From: Nitrospiraceae bacterium
GTDB taxonomy: Bacteria > Nitrospirota > Nitrospiria > Nitrospirales > Nitrospiraceae
Assembly (NCBI GenBank): GCA_050246315.1
Contig: JBFWWG010000014.1
Location: 1-64,000, forward strand
DNA length: 64,000 nt
Direction of reading: 5' to 3'
The notes under the pieces were generated by a model that had not been told where the DNA came from, searched no databases, and saw only the letters and a program-made list of their open reading frames with translations. Below, piece by piece: positions 18,507 to 44,547 of the stretch (the first letter of the stretch is position 1; the number at the start of each line of letters is the position of its first letter). Made by a program: the position numbers and the translations under genes.

Positions 18507-18725
18507 CCGGCCTCCGGCAGAAGGTCATCACCTGCTTCGACTCAAACTTGCCTAATTCCGGCGCAAGCGCGGAAACCTGTCCAGTTGCGGGATATGCCAC
18601 AGGAACAAGGCGTGACAGGATTGGACGGCTTGGGGAAGGCTGGTCGTCATGCCATCAACCTGAGTCTTCCAGCATTTTCTTTGCCATGGCCCTCGCTCGA
18701 TACGCTATCGGGCGAGGCCAGGGTA

Positions 18726-18765
18726 TTTCAGAAGTGCAAAGGGTCAAAGCACAATGAGCAAAAGG
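18726..18765 (-). repeat. 40-nt pyrimidine-rich tract after the stop of TIR-FGE gene 1
   Basis: ccttttgctcattgtgctttgaccctttgcacttctgaaa; 31/40 identical without gaps to 41733-41772. Confidence 0.8.
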
Positions 18766-20001
18766 TTAGGGGATGTCCTGGACTAGACGAAAGCCCAGGA
18801 AGTTGGAACGGTAGACAGCTCGCTGGCACTCCCGCCTCGACGCAGGCAGAAACCCCTTAGCGAAGTTCCAGGCCCCGCCCCGGATCACGCGGGACTCTTC
18901 TTCTTCGTCATACCAGCTGGCACACCATTCCCACACATTGCCGGCCATGTCATAGCAGCCATAGGGGCTGACCCCATCTGGGTACCGAGTTTTCGGGGTT
19001 GTACGACATATGGATGATTCGCCACTGTTGCACTTGTTCTTCTCAAACTCGTCACCCCATGGATAGATGCGGCCATCCGTGCCCCTCGCTGCCTTCTCCC
19101 ACTCCTGTTCGGTCGGCAACCGTTTGCCTGTCCATGTGGCATAGGCCTCCGCTTCGTAAAAGCTCACGCCAACCACAGGACGATTGGGCTTGTTCCATTC
19201 GATATCATTCCAAGAGACAGGAGACTGGACGCTGTTGTTCGTTTTCCATGCCCAGCCCTCTTGGGACCAGTGCACCTGATCTTGGTACCCACCCGCTGAG
19301 ATGAATACTCCAAATTCCTCATTCACGACGGGGAAGCTGTCGATCCAGTAGTCGTGGTCGATCGTCTCACGACGTTTCTCCTCCCCATATAGAAACGGTC
19401 CCCTCGGCACCAGGACCATGCCTGCGGGGGCCTCGGTTGATTGTGGCTCGATTCGCAGACTGACTGATTGAGTTTCTTTAACCTCCCTGCTGGGGACTTG
19501 GACCTCGGTGTGCTGTTCCGTGCGGTGCTCGTCGAAGAGCTGAATCTGTTTCTTCAGGTAGTCGATCAGCCGGTCCATATCCCGATGAAAATCCGGATCG
19601 GGTCGCACCGCGATGCCGTTGCGATAGGCCAAGTCTTCGATACTCTTGGGGAGTCGCTCAGCCGGTGGAATCGAGGCTCCTCCCACCAGTACCGGAATGA
19701 GTGGGATCCCGCGCTTCAGTGCTGACTCGATTTCGATGCGGACGAAATCCCGTGGGTCTTCCAACCTGGACTTGCCCTTCCCGCCCTTTGTTTTCATCCA
19801 GTCCCGCCCGATCACCGCAAGAAACACCTGGCACTTGGCCACCTGCTCATCCAGATAGGTTCGAAAATCGACACCCAGCGGAATGGAATCGACATCCTTA
19901 AACACTGATTCTCGATCAAATTGTTGGATGAGCCGGTCATACATGCGCCCGGTGACATCGGCGCTATCCTCACGACGGTAGGAAATCAGGATCTTGCTCA
20001 T
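18766..20001 (-). CDS. TIR domain + FGE-sulfatase (C-type lectin fold) protein, soluble; candidate DGR target
   Basis: N-terminus ILISYRREDS...VFKDVDSIPLGVDF...DFVRIEIESAL (TIR_2). C-terminus RLPTEQEWEKAARG, YDMAGNVWEW, RVIRGGAW...LGFRLV. The catalytic cysteines of true FGE are absent. Confidence 0.9.
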   Translation of the reverse strand: MSKILISYRREDSADVTGRMYDRLIQQFDRESVFKDVDSIPLGVDFRTYLDEQVAKCQVFLAVIGRDWMKTKGGKGKSRLEDPRDFVRIEIESALKRGIPLIPVLVGGASIPPAERLPKSIEDLAYRNGIAVRPDPDFHRDMDRLIDYLKKQIQLFDEHRTEQHTEVQVPSREVKETQSVSLRIEPQSTEAPAGMVLVPRGPFLYGEEKRRETIDHDYWIDSFPVVNEEFGVFISAGGYQDQVHWSQEGWAWKTNNSVQSPVSWNDIEWNKPNRPVVGVSFYEAEAYATWTGKRLPTEQEWEKAARGTDGRIYPWGDEFEKNKCNSGESSICRTTPKTRYPDGVSPYGCYDMAGNVWEWCASWYDEEEESRVIRGGAWNFAKGFLPASRRECQRAVYRSNFLGFRLVQDIP

Positions 20002-39398: not shown

Positions 39399-39880
39399 TC
39401 GTCTCCCGAATTTCCGAGAAGATCGTCCGATTTATCGAGATAGTCCACATCCTCGTCTTCGTCGTCCAGGGCAAGGTCCTCGGACATGTCATCTTCCAGC
39501 GGTTCTTCCCCGAGGTCGATCTCCTCCTCTCCCAGTTCCTCGTCCATCTCCTCCATTTCATCCGGTTCGAGAGGAGGGAGCGGTTTCCCCGTTGAAGCCG
39601 TCTTCTTTTCGGCCGGTGCTACGGCTTTCCCGGCCGCAACCGCCCTCTGTTCCGATTTGGATTCAGCCTTGCCCGGGCTTTTCTTTGCGGCAGACTTCTT
39701 GACAAACTTGGCCGACATTTTCGAGGGACCCTTTTTCGCCTTCTTCGTTGCAGGCCCAGCTTGACGTGCCGACGCTGTCTTTGCGGCTTTCTTTTTCATC
39801 GGCTTCTTGGCAGAGCTTGCGGCAGGCTTGCTGGTAGGTTTTTTCCCAGACTTCTTTCCGCCCTTCTTCGCAGGGGCCAT
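39383..39880 (-). CDS. low-complexity protein: Lys/Ala-rich (histone H1-like) N-terminus and Asp/Glu-rich C-terminus
   Basis: MAPAKKGGKKSGKK...; C-terminal EEMDEELGEEEIDL...DDEDED; GGGAGG RBS. Confidence 0.8.
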   Translation of the reverse strand: MAPAKKGGKKSGKKPTSKPAASSAKKPMKKKAAKTASARQAGPATKKAKKGPSKMSAKFVKKSAAKKSPGKAESKSEQRAVAAGKAVAPAEKKTASTGKPLPPLEPDEMEEMDEELGEEEIDLGEEPLEDDMSEDLALDDEDEDVDYLDKSDDLLGNSGDDYDER

Positions 39881-40245
39881 CGTTTGCGTTCCTCCCTCTT
39901 CACAAGCGATCGACGGTGATCACGAGGGCACCATCTAGCACGAATGAATAGCGGGTTTCAACCGCAGAATCATGCAGCCCTTATGCGGGCATCGTGCCCA
40001 ACGGGAGCACCGCGTGCACGGTCAAACCGGTCGTCGTCTCACCCGTCCGATCTAAGCGCATGTCTCTCACCCGCCCAACTCCGGTGCGGCGGGACACCTC
40101 GGTCTACGGGCGAGGTCGCGGCGAGCAGGAGCATGAATATCTGTCATTCGTCAAAAGTATTGGAGCGGCAACGCATCTCACCTTATCCATCTCATCGCAG
40201 TTCGATTGACAGGTGACAGTTGACGCATGACGGTCAAGCCCATCG

Positions 40246-40281
40246 GCGAGAACGAAGCTGGCAGGCCTTTTCGATAGCCTG
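40246..40281. repeat. half copy of the 20248-type MITE end
   Basis: gcgagaacgaagctggcaggccttttcgatagcctg vs gcgagaacaaagctggcggactttttcaacaccctg. Confidence 0.6.
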
Positions 40282-40303
40282 TCAGCTCCGACAGCGCAGC
40301 GGC

Positions 40304-40477
40304 GGGGCCGTCGGCCTGGCCGACCGGCCCCGATCGCCTCACCTAGGCCCTCTCTTCAACCTCCCCGATTTGTCGGGAGGCCGGGAAACAGGCTCATGGA
40401 CACCCGCTGCCTCACCCGGCCTGTCCGTGAATAGACCGGCTCTGGGCCGGTGCCATCCACTGAGCCGTGCGGGTGGA
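40304..40477 (-). ncRNA. structured spacer 3' of the template repeat (putative DGR-RNA priming region)
   Basis: Three stem-loops at 40416-40439, 40360-40380 and 40304-40331, directly after the template-like segment; no credible ORF. Confidence 0.6.
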
Positions 40478-40597
40478 CTGGATCAGACGGAAGCCGATGA
40501 TGTTGTTCCGGTAGTTGGCATCGCCCCAGCTCCGGTCTGACGTCCGCAGGTTCTCCGGTTTGTTGTTCCAGGACCCTCACCGGATCAGGCACCGGCC
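40478..40597 (-). repeat. DGR template-repeat (TR)-like sequence
   Basis: Reads GRCLIR*GSWNNKPENLRTSDRSWGDANYRNNIIGFRLIQ with six AAC codons. Non-coding (in-frame TGA, no upstream FGE body). Gaplessly collinear with the 3' ends of both TIR-FGE genes. Confidence 0.85.
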
Positions 40598-40824
40598 GAC
40601 TCTTGGCATGCCCTCCCATTGAACAGCGTAGACCGTTAGGCTGCCAGACCATCTGGTGCATCAGGGGCACCTGGACCAGATAGCATCCTCTGGCTACCAT
40701 GCGGTCTGCGAAGCGTTTGAGGGAGGACGTCTCCCATGTTAAAGGCAAGGCGAACAACAAGACCGTCGGGATCTCACGTGGAGTATGGGAGGGGGCGAGG
40801 ACTAATCCGAGATACGACACTCTT

Positions 40825-40947
40825 ATGGAGGAACTGGAAGACCTTGAGGATCTCCACCGGGAGAAGGCCAAGAAGGAGAAAGGATCTCCATTGGAGGAAG
40901 TGCTGAAGGAATATGAAGTGCCTCACCACGTCCAGCTTGATCGGTGA
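40825..40947 (+). pseudogene. antitoxin (Phd/RelB-like) C-terminal remnant
   Basis: MEELEDLEDL...AKKEKGSPLEEVLKEY; the stop overlaps (TGATG) the start of a RelE-like fragment. Confidence 0.55.
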
Positions 40948-41102
40948 TGGCTTACGAGGTCATCTTCACCCCTCGTACCAGACGAACGTTCCTTCACCTC
41001 CCGACGACTATTGCTCGCAAAATCGCACAAGCCCTTCAGACACTTGCGGACAATCCGAGATCACATCTGTCGATCAAATTGTCCGGCGGAGAAGGATACC
41101 GT
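40947..41102 (+). pseudogene. RelE/ParE-family toxin, 3'-truncated
   Basis: MAYEVIFTPRTRRTFLHLP...LADNPRSHLSIKLSGGEGYR, then runs into the antisense of brnA; the usual xRVGDYRIIY half is missing. Confidence 0.7.
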
Positions 41103-41381
41103 TCAGGCAACCATGATCCGTTTCATTCTCTTGACCTCCTGCTCCAGTCGATTCAGACGGGACTCCATCGTGGCTCGCCTGTGTTGGCCTGTTATCAAGA
41201 GGCGGCCCAGCAAGGTCTCATATGGCACACCGGTCTGCCGAGCAGCCTGTCTCAGGCCTCGGAAGCTGCTAGAATCGATATTGATTGTGATTCGTACAGC
41301 CTTCTGCCGCGCAAATGCAGCCCGCAGCTTGGCCGTGCCCGCCTCATCCACCTTCAGGCGTTCGAGCTTTGGTTCTCTCAT
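41103..41381 (-). CDS. BrnA/CopG-like ribbon-helix-helix antitoxin
   Basis: RITINIDS...LRQAARQTGVPYETLLGRLL; overlaps the end of brnT. Confidence 0.75.
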   Translation of the reverse strand: MREPKLERLKVDEAGTAKLRAAFARQKAVRITINIDSSSFRGLRQAARQTGVPYETLLGRLLITGQHRRATMESRLNRLEQEVKRMKRIMVA

Positions 41382-41640
41382 CGTACAACCTCCGAAACCT
41401 TCGCCATTCGGCTGATCCAATGATACGAATCTTGCTGCCCCTCATGGTAAACCGTGTGGTGAGGACCCGCCCCGTCGAGGTTTGCCCCAGCCAGAAAAAC
41501 CGATTCTCTTTCAGAGAATGCTTCGCGTCAACGAGCTGAACCCCCTTCTGATCGAAGAACGATTCCACCGCCTCTGAAAATGTCACGCCGTGTTTGCGGA
41601 TATTTATCAGCTCCTTTGATATATCCCACTCGAATTCCAT
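41344..41640 (-). CDS. brnT: BrnT-family (DUF497) ribonuclease toxin
   Basis: MEFEWDxxKxxxNIRKHGVTFSEA...F.D...HS..ENRF..LG...IRII. Confidence 0.88.
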   Translation of the reverse strand: MEFEWDISKELINIRKHGVTFSEAVESFFDQKGVQLVDAKHSLKENRFFWLGQTSTGRVLTTRFTMRGSKIRIIGSAEWRRFRRLYDERTKARTPEGG

Positions 41641-41732
41641 CTACGCAGCCATACTCGATTGGCATGGATCATACCATAGGCCACAGTGCCTCCGTCCTTC
41701 TTGTTCTCCTGAGAAATGGGCGGGGCAATTTC

Positions 41733-41772
41733 TTTCGGAAGGGTAAAGGGTAAAAGGACAAAGGGTAAAGGG
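41733..41772 (-). repeat. 40-nt cccttt(a/g) repeat tract after the stop of TIR-FGE gene 2
   Basis: ccctttaccctttgtccttttaccctttacccttccgaaa. Confidence 0.85.
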
Positions 41773-43185
41773 CTAGGGCTCAAGGTCCTGGACAAGACGG
41801 AATCCCAGGTTGAGGAACCGGTTGCCGGCACCGTCCCTGCTCCGGATCGACGCACGGAGGCCCTCCGGTACGTCGAACCAGGACCCGCCGCGGATCACAC
41901 GCCGGCCGCAATCGCCTTTGCCCCCCTCGAGCCAAGCTGAGCCATCAGTCGGCGCCCCCTGATAACTGTTGTGCCAGCAATCCTCCACCCATTCCCAGAC
42001 ATTGCCACTCATGTCATAGAGGCCGACGCTGTTGGGCTTTTTGCTCCCAGCCGGCGACGAGCGATCTGCCCTGAACACCGCATAGTCCGGCAGTAACTTT
42101 TCATCCGAGGTCCCAGCCCAGGTTTCTGCCTTGCCTCCGCTTCGCGCCGCATATTCCCATTCCGCTTCCGTCGGCAATCGATAGCGCTTGCCTGTCTGTT
42201 GCGACAACCACCCGCCATAAGCCTTGGCATCCTCCCACAACACATTGATCACAGGCCGTCGACCGCGGCCCCAAGCCTCATCGTGCGGCAGGGACCGCTT
42301 GGTCTCCTCGGCGAATCGGTCATACTCCTCAAACGTGACCTCGCAGGTACCAATGGCAAACGGTTTGACATTGACAGTGTGAACCGGTTGCTCATCAGTA
42401 CTGGCGCTCCCTGCGTCGGGCCCCATTTGAAATTCTCCGCCTTCTACCAGAATCATTTCCGGCTCGAACCCCGGAAGAGTTCCACAAGCTGAAGAATGGC
42501 GTGTCACAGTCGCCGACGCACTCAATTCATCCAGTCCCCACCGCGCCAATCCCCATGCGCCGAGCACAAGGATGATCAGCACCATCGCCAATGTGCCAAA
42601 CCTGACACCTCGGCCAATCCCCGTGCGCCAAGGGAGCCCTTTTTCGCCAGCCAGCAGAGCCGGCCCTGTTTCTTCGGCGCGGGCCGCATGCTGCGGCTTT
42701 GGAGTTTTCAGAGCCGGCTCCGGCTTATCCGACTCTTCTTGTAGTTGCGATGCAGTATGTGCTTCACGTCCTACCGAACGATCACGAATAGCTTGAAAGA
42801 GCTTCTGAATCGCCATGTCATCATCGAGACCGCTGCGCAGATCCACCCACTGGTAGATAGGAGAGCCGAACGGTTTCTCAGCGCCTGGCAGCAATACTGA
42901 AATGATGGGAAAGCGTTGGGCACCTCGGTTAGCCGCGTGATGCTGCAGCGCCAGATATAGTGCGACCTGCCGTGAGCCCATCTCTACCCGCCCAATGCAG
43001 AGAGCCACCACTCGGTATTGGGCCAGCATCTCCTCCAATTCCTGGGGCCAGGGCTTCCATGGCTCCCGACGCTCGGAAAGCACCACCTTGAGCCTCCGTG
43101 TACGCAACTGCCAGCCGAGTGCCTCTACCTGTGCACGATCGTACGGGTGGTAGCTCAGAAGGACATCGACCTGATCAGCCTCCAC
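41773..43185 (-). CDS. TIR - transmembrane - FGE-sulfatase (C-type lectin fold) protein; DGR target with variable region 41788-41907
   Basis: DVLLSYH...LxxxL...VVALCIG...PIISVLLPG...WVDLR (TIR_2-like); TM helix FGTLAMVLIILVLGAWGLA; RLPTEAEWEYAAR, YDMSGNVWEWVEDCWH, RVIRGGSW...LGFRLVQD. Confidence 0.9.
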   Translation of the reverse strand: MEADQVDVLLSYHPYDRAQVEALGWQLRTRRLKVVLSERREPWKPWPQELEEMLAQYRVVALCIGRVEMGSRQVALYLALQHHAANRGAQRFPIISVLLPGAEKPFGSPIYQWVDLRSGLDDDMAIQKLFQAIRDRSVGREAHTASQLQEESDKPEPALKTPKPQHAARAEETGPALLAGEKGLPWRTGIGRGVRFGTLAMVLIILVLGAWGLARWGLDELSASATVTRHSSACGTLPGFEPEMILVEGGEFQMGPDAGSASTDEQPVHTVNVKPFAIGTCEVTFEEYDRFAEETKRSLPHDEAWGRGRRPVINVLWEDAKAYGGWLSQQTGKRYRLPTEAEWEYAARSGGKAETWAGTSDEKLLPDYAVFRADRSSPAGSKKPNSVGLYDMSGNVWEWVEDCWHNSYQGAPTDGSAWLEGGKGDCGRRVIRGGSWFDVPEGLRASIRSRDGAGNRFLNLGFRLVQDLEP

Positions 43186-43234
43186 GTGTTTTCTACCAGT
43201 TCAATCCGGTCTGAAGATGATCGAAATTGGCACA

Positions 43235-43292
43235 AGGCTACTTTTTAGGCAAGGTCATCTCAACTAGCAGGTCCGTGGAAATACCAGTATTT
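43235..43292 (-). promoter_or_regulatory. sigma70 promoter plus upstream palindromic box of TIR-FGE gene 2
   Basis: TTGAGA-17-TAGCCT (43263-43235); AAATAC-ca-GTATTT at 43279-43292, with the same spacing as at gene 1. Confidence 0.75.
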
Positions 43293-43346
43293 AGCGGAGC
43301 TTCGGCGAATAGAAGGGATTGAATGGCCTTACCTGCTCAAGGCCTC

Positions 43347-43560
43347 TAGCAGGCTGCGGGAAAACCTTCCGTTCATCTTTCGAGAGCCTCAGGACGATTG
43401 GAGCGGTCGTTGAATGCACTGGGGTTTTCCGATCCTGCTGCGACCTGTCGAACCCTGCGGTGAGCTCAGTCGAACCGCATGAACGGAACTCCTGGAAAGT
43501 GGGCGCCCTTCGATACGCTCAGGGCGAACGGATGATTACCGGAACTTTCGGGATGCAACA
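43347..43560. repeat. composite MITE/REP-like region
   Basis: Begins tagcaggctgcgggaaaa; contains cccttcgatacgctcagggcgaacgg (43506-43531), nearly identical to 25570-25595. Confidence 0.6.
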
Positions 43561-44547
43561 CTACGGCTCGACCCAAATATTGAGATAGGCCGGCAGACTA
43601 TCGGCCCCCTTTACCGTATCGGGACCGATCATGTCAGTCACTTGCAATCGGAAACGGATTAGTCGCTTCGCGGCGACCTTGGGGGCGATGAACGACGCCT
43701 TGGCTTCATTTGGTCCGGTCAGATCGACCTTGAGGCCGCGAACCTGGCTCCACTCGTACCGCAGGGGATCGCCGTCTGGGTCTACGCTCTGGACCCCGCT
43801 CAACACGACCCGAGCCCCGCCTTTCACCGTCTGGTCTTCACCCGGGTTGGCCGAAGGGGGTCGGTTTGGTTCGTCGTCGCCGATCGCCTGAATATCGAGC
43901 GTTCCGACCTTGCCGCGGTTGACAACCTGCAGCGAGGCCCGGCCTGGCCTCTCGACTCGAATCCATCCGTCATCGAGCACTCTCGCGATATTCGGATCGC
44001 TCGACTGAAATTGGCTGCCGGCCGACGGGGAATCGATCGACCGCACCAGTCCGTCCTGGAATAACCCCACTGCCGGCACCCGCGTGAGCTTGCCGATGGG
44101 TTGGACTATCCAGGGTTTCTCGGCTTCAAATTCGATGGTCTCAATCGGAGCGGGGGGCTCCACCTGCACGACGACCTCATCAAAGTCGGGCCTGGTCCCC
44201 AATCGTCCCTGTGTCACCTCCGCCACGGCCAGCAGGCGCATCCGCCCGGCCGCGACCAACGGCACAGTCAGATTGCCTCCGAACGGCGGCGTGGCGGACA
44301 TATCGGCCACCAGCGCCGCTTCGGCCAGTTGCGGCGGAAGCGGCTCCTCCTCAGCTCGATACCAGTAATAGGTGATCTTGCGAATCCCCGCCTCGCGCTC
44401 GACCTTGACCGTGACGGGGATGGATTGCCCTCCGGTCACCACCGCCGATGAGCGCGGGGCGGTTAACTCAAAGGCACCGGTTGTGGCCACGTTCAGGCCG
44501 AAGGCGCCCAACCAGAACAGACCCCAGTAGACCAGCCGGAGTCGCAT
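43561..44547 (-). CDS. exported Ig-like/PKD-domain protein
   Basis: Signal-like N-terminus; FQSSDPNIARV (Big_2-like); NRPPSANPGEDQTV...SVDPDGDPLRYEWSQV (PKD-like). Confidence 0.8.
   Translation of the reverse strand: MRLRLVYWGLFWLGAFGLNVATTGAFELTAPRSSAVVTGGQSIPVTVKVEREAGIRKITYYWYRAEEEPLPPQLAEAALVADMSATPPFGGNLTVPLVAAGRMRLLAVAEVTQGRLGTRPDFDEVVVQVEPPAPIETIEFEAEKPWIVQPIGKLTRVPAVGLFQDGLVRSIDSPSAGSQFQSSDPNIARVLDDGWIRVERPGRASLQVVNRGKVGTLDIQAIGDDEPNRPPSANPGEDQTVKGGARVVLSGVQSVDPDGDPLRYEWSQVRGLKVDLTGPNEAKASFIAPKVAAKRLIRFRLQVTDMIGPDTVKGADSLPAYLNIWVEP

What the first reader, a model, noticed from the sequence alone, without database searches (positions are those of the whole stretch)
40304..40597. Orphan DGR template repeat plus structured spacer, with no reverse transcriptase beside it
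Seen: a non-coding 120-nt segment (40478-40597, minus) translating as GRCLIR*GSWNNKPENLRTSDRSWGDANYRNNIIGFRLIQ, rich in AAC codons and gaplessly collinear with the end of the TIR-FGE gene at 41788-41907. Over the 99-nt core (GSW to IQ) I count 29 mismatches, 19 of them at adenines of this segment (e.g. aac->ttc, gac, ggc, ctc). Three stem-loops follow immediately, then half a MITE end (40246-40281) and an unrelated gene. Known: DGRs diversify C-type-lectin-fold variable regions by adenine-specific mutagenic reverse transcription of a TR RNA; TR is normally followed by a structured spacer and the RT gene. Inference: this is either a stand-alone template cassette served in trans by an RT elsewhere in the genome, or a relic whose RT was deleted at the MITE junction. 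Trans-served satellite templates would be an unusual DGR architecture.
Basis: partly seen in the sequence, partly recalled or inferred. Interest (0 to 1): 0.88.

Follow-up and report, generated by a model that had tools for sequence, protein, structure and literature searches.

The report
Leftover template of a hypermutation cassette
This is the worn-out template RNA gene of a bacterial hypermutation cassette that lost its enzyme, while the sensor gene beside it is now rewritten by a different, intact cassette elsewhere in the genome, a known kind of decay.

Summary
In detail: a DGR template repeat (TR, 40478-40598) plus structured spacer, no reverse transcriptase (RT) beside it. The interpretation needs correcting. 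The genome holds two complete DGRs (C3, C5) in the order target-avd-RT-TR-spacer, so the RT was lost upstream of the TR, not at the downstream repeat; toxin-antitoxin genes fill the avd-RT slot and about 27 nt of the RT end remain. The neighbouring TIR-TM-FGE gene matches the C3 template at all 89 non-adenine sites but this TR at only 78 of 93: it is a remote target of C3, and a second allele is seen in one DNA run. The orphan TR has no cognate target in the genome, in 370 relatives or in viral contigs, breaks 13 of 86 columns invariant in 14 intact TRs, and has lost the predicted leader-spacer duplex. Best reading: a relic (about 0.72), apparently scarred by an adenine-specific patch. One RNA contig joins its leader to an intact fourth template that fits the C5 target; chimera or true allele is open. 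Degenerate loci with trans-served targets are in print (Dore 2024), and this scan noted RT-less templates before on other DNA.

The parts
41773..43185 (-). DGR target gene, 470 aa: TIR_2 (8-129), one hydrophobic segment (about 196-214), FGE-sulfatase / C-type-lectin-fold domain (242-465)
   Evidence: ORF; Pfam; hydropathy
41788..41908 (-). Variable repeat; adenine-only copy of the template on contig C3 (18 of 32 A, 0 of 89 non-A); a second allele in run X6
41733..41787 (-). Pyrimidine-rich tract after the VR shared by all six VR-bearing genes of the genome (candidate IMH region, inferred); the strong downstream hairpin of the other five loci is weak here (150-nt DNA fold -13.4 against -20 to -30 kcal/mol)
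41344..41640 (-). BrnT-family toxin gene, in the slot where avd begins in complete cassettes
   Evidence: Pfam PF04365, E 1.7e-18
41103..41381 (-). Probable antitoxin (CopG_antitoxin, E 0.01, below cut-off)
40699..41102 (+). Small ORF (82 aa, no family) followed by a ParE-like start (E 0.17, below cut-off) that runs into the antisense of the antitoxin gene; probably a broken second toxin-antitoxin pair (inferred)
40599..40625 (-). Remnant of the RT gene's 3' end (leader of the DGR RNA); 13 of 20 identical to the consensus at 40598-40617 against a mean of 18.7 in intact cassettes; background identity further upstream
40478..40598 (-). Template repeat without a cognate target; in-frame TGA at 40577-40579; 13 of 86 invariant columns broken
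40517..40537 (-). Adenine-specific patch inside the TR: 6 of 9 adenines and 0 of 12 other bases differ from the C3 template
40281..40477 (-). DGR spacer, 83-84% identical to the C3 and C5 spacers, 58 of 64 consensus pairs kept
40200..40281 (.). Piece of a dispersed genomic repeat; abuts the natural end of the spacer
39972..43560 (.). The whole 3.6-kb island; the flanking genes are adjacent in 2 of 2 congeners that hold both (G001, G003)

Best explanation
The island is a degenerate copy of the Nitrospiraceae DGR cassette target-avd-RT-TR-spacer. Toxin-antitoxin genes replaced avd and all but the last few codons of the RT (shown by position and homology; the event itself is inferred). The template and spacer stayed behind. 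The target gene did not go silent: its VR is now kept in step with the template of the complete cassette on C3, acting in trans (shown by the 121-nt adenine-only match; ongoing change suggested by a second allele). The local template, freed from its job, has drifted and has probably been partly overwritten by adenine-mutagenised sequence, either a stray cDNA or gene conversion from a VR (inferred). It no longer templates any gene that could be found.
For: Two complete cassettes with Avd above the NCBIfam cut-off and 360-aa RTs, RT upstream of TR. Neighbouring VR: 0 of 89 non-A mismatches to TR_C3, 15 of 93 to the local TR. Genome-wide scan: longest stretch without a non-A mismatch to the local TR is 34 nt, against 121 nt (two genes) for TR_C3 and 114 nt (one gene) for TR_C5. 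Its adenine-masked middle motif is found in 0 of 370 other family genomes with up to 2 mismatches and not in viral contigs. 13 of 86 invariant columns broken against 0-2 for each of 14 intact TRs left out in turn. Predicted leader-spacer duplex -12.5 kcal/mol against -19.3 to -24.7 in 15 of 15 intact cassettes with a whole spacer; median of unrelated windows -11.5. Decay is common in the family: of 36 distinct spacer-bearing loci 16 have an intact RT reading frame, 12 have neither RT nor whole TR, and this is the only one with a whole TR and no RT body. Three further relic loci in this genome keep avd or RT scraps (C4, C14:18558-18650, C18). Degenerate loci with trans-served targets are described (PMC10907252).
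Against: The spacer is not visibly decayed: 58 of 64 pairs, inside the range of intact ones (58-63), 8 near-invariant columns changed against 0-8. TR positions 23-54 are almost untouched and the 99-nt core has no stop or indel, so divergence is patchy, not uniform. The unit was identical to the window in both DNA runs laid (X12, X6; either may be the source of the assembly). An RNA contig (X17 record 19) carries this unit's leader on an intact template that fits VR_C5 at 68 of 68 non-A sites. The assembly has 30 contigs, so a target could be missing. The role of the leader-spacer duplex is taken from BPP-1 and is untested in this family.
Confidence: 0.72

Rival explanations
1. The RT-less unit is a stand-alone template gene served by the C3 or C5 RT-Avd in trans. 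The window holds a damaged allele; other strains hold an intact allele that templates the C5 target.
For: X17 record 19 spans 40389-40616 with all 25 differences inside 40432-40544 and none in the 72 nt 40545-40616; read as a template it fits VR_C5 with 15 of 31 A and 0 of 68 non-A mismatches, and VR_C5 has no cognate template in the assembly (8 of 88 non-A mismatches to TR_C5). Spacer structure kept; C3 and C5 RTs are 79% identical with similar spacers, so cross-use is plausible.
Against: The join lies in a 32-nt block shared by both templates, just over the assembler's word length, so the contig may be a chimera; X17 also holds a fourth spacer 3' end at similar depth (record 18, 12 differences, unlike C3's 21 or C5's 16), which points to a separate cassette. 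Not seen in the two DNA runs among the rows shown. The leader would still have the weak duplex. One run of four, contigs only; no second RT-less whole TR among 36 loci.
Confidence: 0.15
2. The unit is kept for a non-templating role: a decoy RNA that binds RT-Avd through its intact spacer and damps mutagenesis, or a silent donor for gene conversion into VRs.
For: The spacer is better kept than leader and TR. In BPP-1 an RNA lacking the upstream segment still binds RT and Avd but is not copied (bioRxiv 2023.10.23.563531, passage). Spacers without TR or RT recur in the family, several with 61-63 of 64 pairs (L027, L032, L042, L061).
Against: Other RT-less spacers are clearly eroded (L062 50, L063 46, L039 55 pairs), as recent relics of different ages would be. 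Changes in this spacer are mostly G>A and C>T at near-invariant columns. The one sigma-70-like site found is at chance level (1 against 0.7 expected). Island absent from 2 of 2 congeners with both flanks.
Confidence: 0.08
3. It is the decayed 3' end of an FGE gene, or an assembly chimera, and not a template.
For: The middle of the repeat is VR-like and VR/TR fusions exist in relatives (L018, L060).
Against: Upstream DNA has no similarity to the FGE body (all 200 shuffles score as high) but matches RT 3' ends; a DGR spacer follows, not the VR's pyrimidine tract; contigs of two DNA runs match it with 0 differences across 40402-41762.
Confidence: 0.03

Closest known systems
Degenerate DGR loci of Thiohalocapsa PB-PSB1 (Dore et al. 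2024, PMC10907252; passages and sections 5 and 7 read, supplements not opened)
   Same: Several DGR loci per genome; CLec targets with TIR, nSTAND and TM domains; RT replaced by foreign DNA at DGR 4 and 5, whose VRs match the template of a remote complete locus at all non-adenine sites.
   Different: There MITE-like arrays replace the RT; here toxin-antitoxin genes replace avd and RT. Here the local template is shown to have no target and to carry an adenine-specific patch; the text read does not discuss the state of the templates left at DGR 4 and 5.
Remote DGR targets (Wu et al. 2018, PMC5758913; Treponema denticola, PMC4891356; passages read)
   Same: Targets far from the RT recognised by A-to-N-only differences (45 of 372 DGRs in Wu et al.); leftovers of lost core cassettes in T. 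denticola.
   Different: The T. denticola leftovers lack both RT and TR; here a non-cognate TR and spacer remain next to the remote target.
Bordetella phage BPP-1 DGR RNA (avd 3' end - TR - Sp; bioRxiv 2023.10.23.563531, passages read)
   Same: TR followed by a structured spacer; an 11-bp complement between the sequence upstream of TR and the spacer, like the essential 'cPRT Stop' duplex.
   Different: Gene order is avd-RT-TR-Sp, so the upstream strand is the RT gene's 3' end, not avd's; no sequence match to any Rfam family (0 hits at E <= 1); the duplex is only predicted here.
TR self-mutagenesis in engineered E. coli DGRs (bioRxiv 2026.07.21.739853, passages read)
   Same: Loss of adenines from the template itself.
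   Different: Reported for synthetic, recombineering-assisted systems; here a natural template, and the cause (cDNA or conversion from a VR) is not resolved.
STAND NTPase-FGS / TIR-FGS conflict systems linked to DGRs (Kaur et al. 2021, PMC8195603; passages read)
   Same: FGS lectin-fold domain joined to TIR, with DGR parts next door or elsewhere in the genome.
   Different: The window's target has TIR-TM-FGE with no NTPase domain; function untested.

Membership tests
DGR template repeat (by descent) | Gapless homology to the VR of a CLec/FGE target with mismatches concentrated at template adenines | tested here: met
   19 of 26 A against 10 of 73 non-A, p = 5e-8
DGR template repeat (by descent) | Followed by the family's structured spacer | tested here: met
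   83-84% identity to C3 and C5 spacers; 58 of 64 consensus pairs
Functional DGR template | A target that differs from it only at adenines | tested here: not met
   Best gene has 10 of 73 non-A mismatches; longest clean run 34 nt; motif in 0 of 370 relatives and not in viral contigs
Functional DGR template | Upstream RNA segment able to pair with the spacer (cPRT Stop, shown in BPP-1) | tested here: not met
   Predicted duplex -12.5 against -19.3 to -24.7 kcal/mol in 15 intact cassettes; prediction only
Functional DGR template | Transcribed on the template strand | tested here: inconclusive
   Only unstranded contigs of RNA runs; the leader is in one RNA contig, the window-type middle is in none of the pieces listed
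Functional DGR template | Yields adenine-mutagenised cDNA with RT and Avd | not testable with these tools
   needs biochemistry or cDNA sequencing
Complete DGR cassette | RT and avd in cis | tested here: not met
   None in 40560-41800; about 27 nt of the RT end only
Degenerate DGR locus with trans-served target (Dore et al. 2024) | Key machinery missing while other parts remain | tested here: met
   avd and RT absent; target, TR and spacer present
Degenerate DGR locus with trans-served target (Dore et al. 2024) | [quoted passage not shown] | tested here: met
   0 of 89 non-A mismatches to TR_C3; C3 has Avd (NF033474 above cut-off) and a 360-aa RT
Degenerate DGR locus with trans-served target (Dore et al. 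2024) | Variation in the population at template-adenine sites | tested here: inconclusive
   One alternative 127-nt contig with 17 differences in X6; the 5 shown all face TR_C3 adenines, 12 were not displayed
DGR clade 5 (Roux et al.) | RT falls in clade 5 of the RT tree | not tested
   No reference tree built; cellular location and TM-CLec targets fit the description read
MITE (40200-40281) | Terminal inverted repeats, target-site duplication, matching transposase | not tested
   Only its repetition in the genome was shown

The most novel reading that the evidence does not exclude
The RT-less unit is a transcribed, exchangeable template gene: some strains carry an intact allele that templates the C5 TIR-STAND receptor through a borrowed RT-Avd, so that each of three targets next to a template in this genome could be cross-wired to a template elsewhere, and the window's allele has been switched off by the system's own adenine mutagenesis. 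That would be a natural DGR network with stand-alone templates and self-inactivation.
Probability: 0.13. Interest if true: 0.68.

Novelty: new member of a known kind. Interest (0 to 1): 0.3.

Why it matters
As a relic it is ordinary, but the locus is a clean record of how DGR networks rewire: a target outlives its own machinery and is taken over by another cassette, while the old template drifts. Two side results are testable and of some use to DGR specialists: a predicted 11-bp RT-end/spacer duplex that may play the part of BPP-1's cPRT Stop in cassettes with the RT upstream of TR, and a natural template that seems to carry an adenine-mutagenesis scar. The organism is abundant in public reactor samples (16 of 24 listed runs hold half of the stretch's words or more), so the open point can be settled from raw reads.

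Tried and rejected
Rfam at E <= 1 over 39800-43700: 0 hits. RT deleted at the downstream repeat: rejected, the RT lies upstream of TR in both complete cassettes here and in all 14 other loci with an intact RT frame. Longer RT or avd remnant upstream: only chance-level scores (81-180 of 200 shuffles as high); gapped global alignments that seemed to extend further were not trusted. Metagenome scan for this unit's TR-spacer junction: 0 matches (the tool may leave out records of this genome). Spacer motif in viral contigs: 0. Promoter scan: chance level; no terminator. Depth of RNA contigs was not used to rank expression, and lack of cover in RNA runs is not taken as absence. Spacer structure does not separate live from dead units. 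Whole-RNA folds did not reliably form the leader-spacer helix even in intact cassettes (0.0 to 8.7 expected pairs in 4 intact, 11.1 in a shifted register for the window), so only the two-strand energies are used; two rows (L043, L064) had a wrong anchor, L043 was corrected and L064 dropped. X15 record 12 (window-type spacer start, 24-nt shorter TR, 1090 nt of unlike upstream DNA, about the length of an RT gene) hints at a sister strain with the RT in place, but its letters were not displayed, so it is not counted. Literature searches for a described stand-alone TR served in trans found remote targets and degenerate loci but no paper devoted to an RT-less template; 'partial DGR' in PMC6642488 means TR plus RT without VR. 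The library lacks most subscription journals.

Full report
1. The observation. The segment 40478-40598 (minus) aligns without gaps to 41788-41908, the end of a 470-aa TIR-TM-FGE gene. Over the 99-nt core there are 29 mismatches, 19 of 26 adenines and 10 of 73 other bases (Fisher p = 5e-8). The downstream 191 nt fold far better than shuffles (z = -3.61) and match no Rfam family.

2. The genome. G000 (4.39 Mb, 30 contigs, 100% complete) has two RTs, on C3 and C5, each behind an Avd that passes the NCBIfam and Pfam cut-offs. Both cassettes run target - pyrimidine tract - hairpin - avd - RT - TR - spacer, with the RT stop codon inside the first 14 nt of the TR. Named relatives carrying the same spacer motif are Nitrospira, Nitrospiraceae or Nitrospirota (8 of 8 records). 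The window unit is a third TR-spacer, 77-78% identical in the TR and 83-84% in the spacer. Because the RT sits upstream, the loss happened between the target and the TR. That 1.1-kb slot now holds BrnT (E 1.7e-18), a probable antitoxin and a broken ParE-like pair on the other strand. Homology to RT ends stops near 40625; further upstream nothing exceeds shuffled controls for RT, avd or FGE body. The downstream repeat simply abuts the normal end of the spacer. The whole 3.6-kb island is absent from 2 of 2 congeners that hold both flanking genes (the third congener gave no match for one flank).

3. Who templates whom. All three TRs were compared with all six VR-like genes and scanned along both strands of the genome. 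TR_C3 fits its own target and the window's gene over all 121 nt (17 and 18 of 32 adenines changed, 0 of 89 other bases). TR_C5 fits a remote gene on C4 over 114 nt and a gene on C18 less well (3 of 68 non-A mismatches in the core); it does not fit its own neighbour (8 of 88). The window TR fits nothing: 14-30 non-A mismatches of 93, longest clean run 34 nt. Its adenine-masked middle was found in 0 of 370 other family genomes at up to 2 mismatches and not in viral contigs. In DNA run X6 the VR forms two 127-nt contigs with the same ends, one identical to the window and one with 17 differences; the 5 displayed all face TR_C3 adenines and two of them are in neither TR_C3, VR_C3 nor the window; 12 were not displayed. 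Run X12 showed only the window allele among the pieces listed. Both DNA runs may be sources of the assembly.

4. Is the template still fit? I gathered spacer-bearing loci (five weak hits L068-L072 and three matches without a locus were left out; duplicates collapsed) and obtained 36 distinct loci: 16 with an intact RT frame, 6 with a whole TR and a damaged, partial or undecidable RT, 1 VR/TR fusion, 12 with neither RT nor whole TR (one of them, L066, a weak hit, one, L033, short), and the window, the only whole TR with no RT body. Against 14 intact TRs of equal length (L028 and L036 left out for indels) the window breaks 13 of 86 invariant columns; each intact TR left out in turn breaks 0-2. 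It has an in-frame TGA where all others read GG, and has lost the invariant NRNRN run. In BPP-1 a duplex between the segment upstream of TR and the spacer is required for cDNA synthesis (bioRxiv 2023.10.23.563531, passages). An 11-bp complement between the RT 3' end and the spacer is present here, with an A-U to G-C change on both sides in C3, L030 and L031; its two-strand energy is -19.3 to -24.7 kcal/mol in 15 of 15 intact cassettes with a whole spacer and -12.5 in the window, near the median of unrelated windows (-11.5). Whole-RNA folds do not form it reliably, so this is a prediction by analogy. Against decay: the spacer keeps 58 of 64 consensus pairs, within the intact range, though several spacers with no TR or RT do as well.

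5. The adenine patch. Of the 13 broken columns 7 are adenines (7 of 25 against 6 of 61, p = 0.047), while in the spacer adenines are not favoured (1 of 14 against 7 of 113). A scan finds 40517-40537 differing from TR_C3 at 6 of 9 adenines and 0 of 12 other bases; permutation p = 0.0025 for this, the best-scoring of 14 references, and 0.015-0.037 for the three others permuted. This is what a VR looks like. Overwriting by a mutagenised cDNA or conversion from the direct-repeat VR 1.3 kb away would both explain it (inference). VR x TR recombination products exist in relatives (L018, L060), and loss of template adenines is reported for engineered DGRs (bioRxiv 2026.07.21.739853, passages).

6. The loose end. 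RNA run X17 gave a contig over 40389-40616 whose 25 differences all lie in 40432-40544. Read as a template it fits the C5 target, which has no template in the assembly, at 68 of 68 non-adenine sites of the core. A fourth template therefore exists in that population, and it is the window unit's nearest relative at the TR 3' end and spacer start. Whether it truly follows this RT-less leader is open: the join runs through a 32-nt block common to both, about the assembler's word length, and the same run holds a fourth spacer end at similar depth. This is the reason the trans-served reading keeps 0.15.

7. What is known. Dore et al. [quoted passage not shown] Wu et al. 2018 (passages) count 45 of 372 DGRs with non-adjacent targets; T. 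denticola keeps targets of lost cassettes (PMC4891356, passages); Kaur et al. 2021 (passages) link TIR/STAND-FGS proteins to DGRs; a downstream hairpin helps but is not strictly required for homing (PMC12875486, passage), which fits a served target with a weak hairpin. Five searches found no paper on a stand-alone template served in trans. Earlier notes of this scan, unchecked here, report RT-less templates in other genomes, some read as relics and some as trans-served, and treat the C3 and C5 cassettes of this genome.

8. Verdict. A real DGR template by descent, most likely dead; a new member of the known class of degenerate DGR loci with a trans-served target. Interest 0.3.

Noticed in passing
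G000:C5:67032-67152 (L004) and window 40389-40616 in run X17: The target next to the complete C5 cassette does not match its own template (8 of 88 non-A mismatches) but matches a fourth template seen only in an RNA contig (0 of 68); TR_C5 instead fits a remote gene on C4. A third working cassette may be missing from the assembly or templates were swapped.
   Followed up: partly
L027, L032, L033, L038, L041, L062, L063, L065; L030; window 40699-41640: In Nitrospiraceae DGR relics the avd-RT slot is repeatedly filled by toxin-antitoxin-like gene pairs: one inverted pair shared by eight loci (83-96% identical), another in L030, a third in the window. The eight keep the spacer but no TR.
   Followed up: partly
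L002 and L001 (RT 3' end and spacer of C3, C5) and 13 other intact loci: Conserved 11-bp complement between the last codons of the RT gene and the spacer, a candidate analogue of the BPP-1 cPRT Stop for cassettes with the RT upstream of TR.
   Followed up: partly
L018 (G001:C1:1807933-1808062) and L060: Reciprocal products of VR x TR recombination: avd-RT followed by a TR 5' half fused to a VR 3' half, and a target gene ending in TR sequence followed directly by the spacer.
   Followed up: no
L028 and run X15 record 12: The same 24-nt in-frame deletion between two internal repeats of the TR occurs in an intact cassette (L028, whose VR shares it) and in a contig with a window-type spacer start.
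   Followed up: partly
window 18558-20001 (minus): A second DGR relic in the window: a 411-aa FGE gene with VR-like end, pyrimidine tract, hairpin and the first 31 codons of avd; its VR fits none of the three templates (22-30 non-A mismatches).
   Followed up: partly
G000:C4:21481-22144 (L005), G000:C18:30402-30665 (L006): The remote targets of TR_C5 are themselves relic cassettes with RT or avd scraps behind them, and share a further 139-nt segment at 90% identity.
   Followed up: no
window 43345-43560 and 40200-40281: Both ends of the island carry pieces of dispersed repeats (30-40 BLAST hits for the two pieces at the left end, 10 for the right); no target-site duplication was evident.
   Followed up: no
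window 41743-41925 in run X17: Two different contigs (17 and 21 differences) share the five displayed VR letters, including three that are not the template's; possible conversion between the C3 and window targets, which share 29 identical bases upstream of the VR.
   Followed up: no
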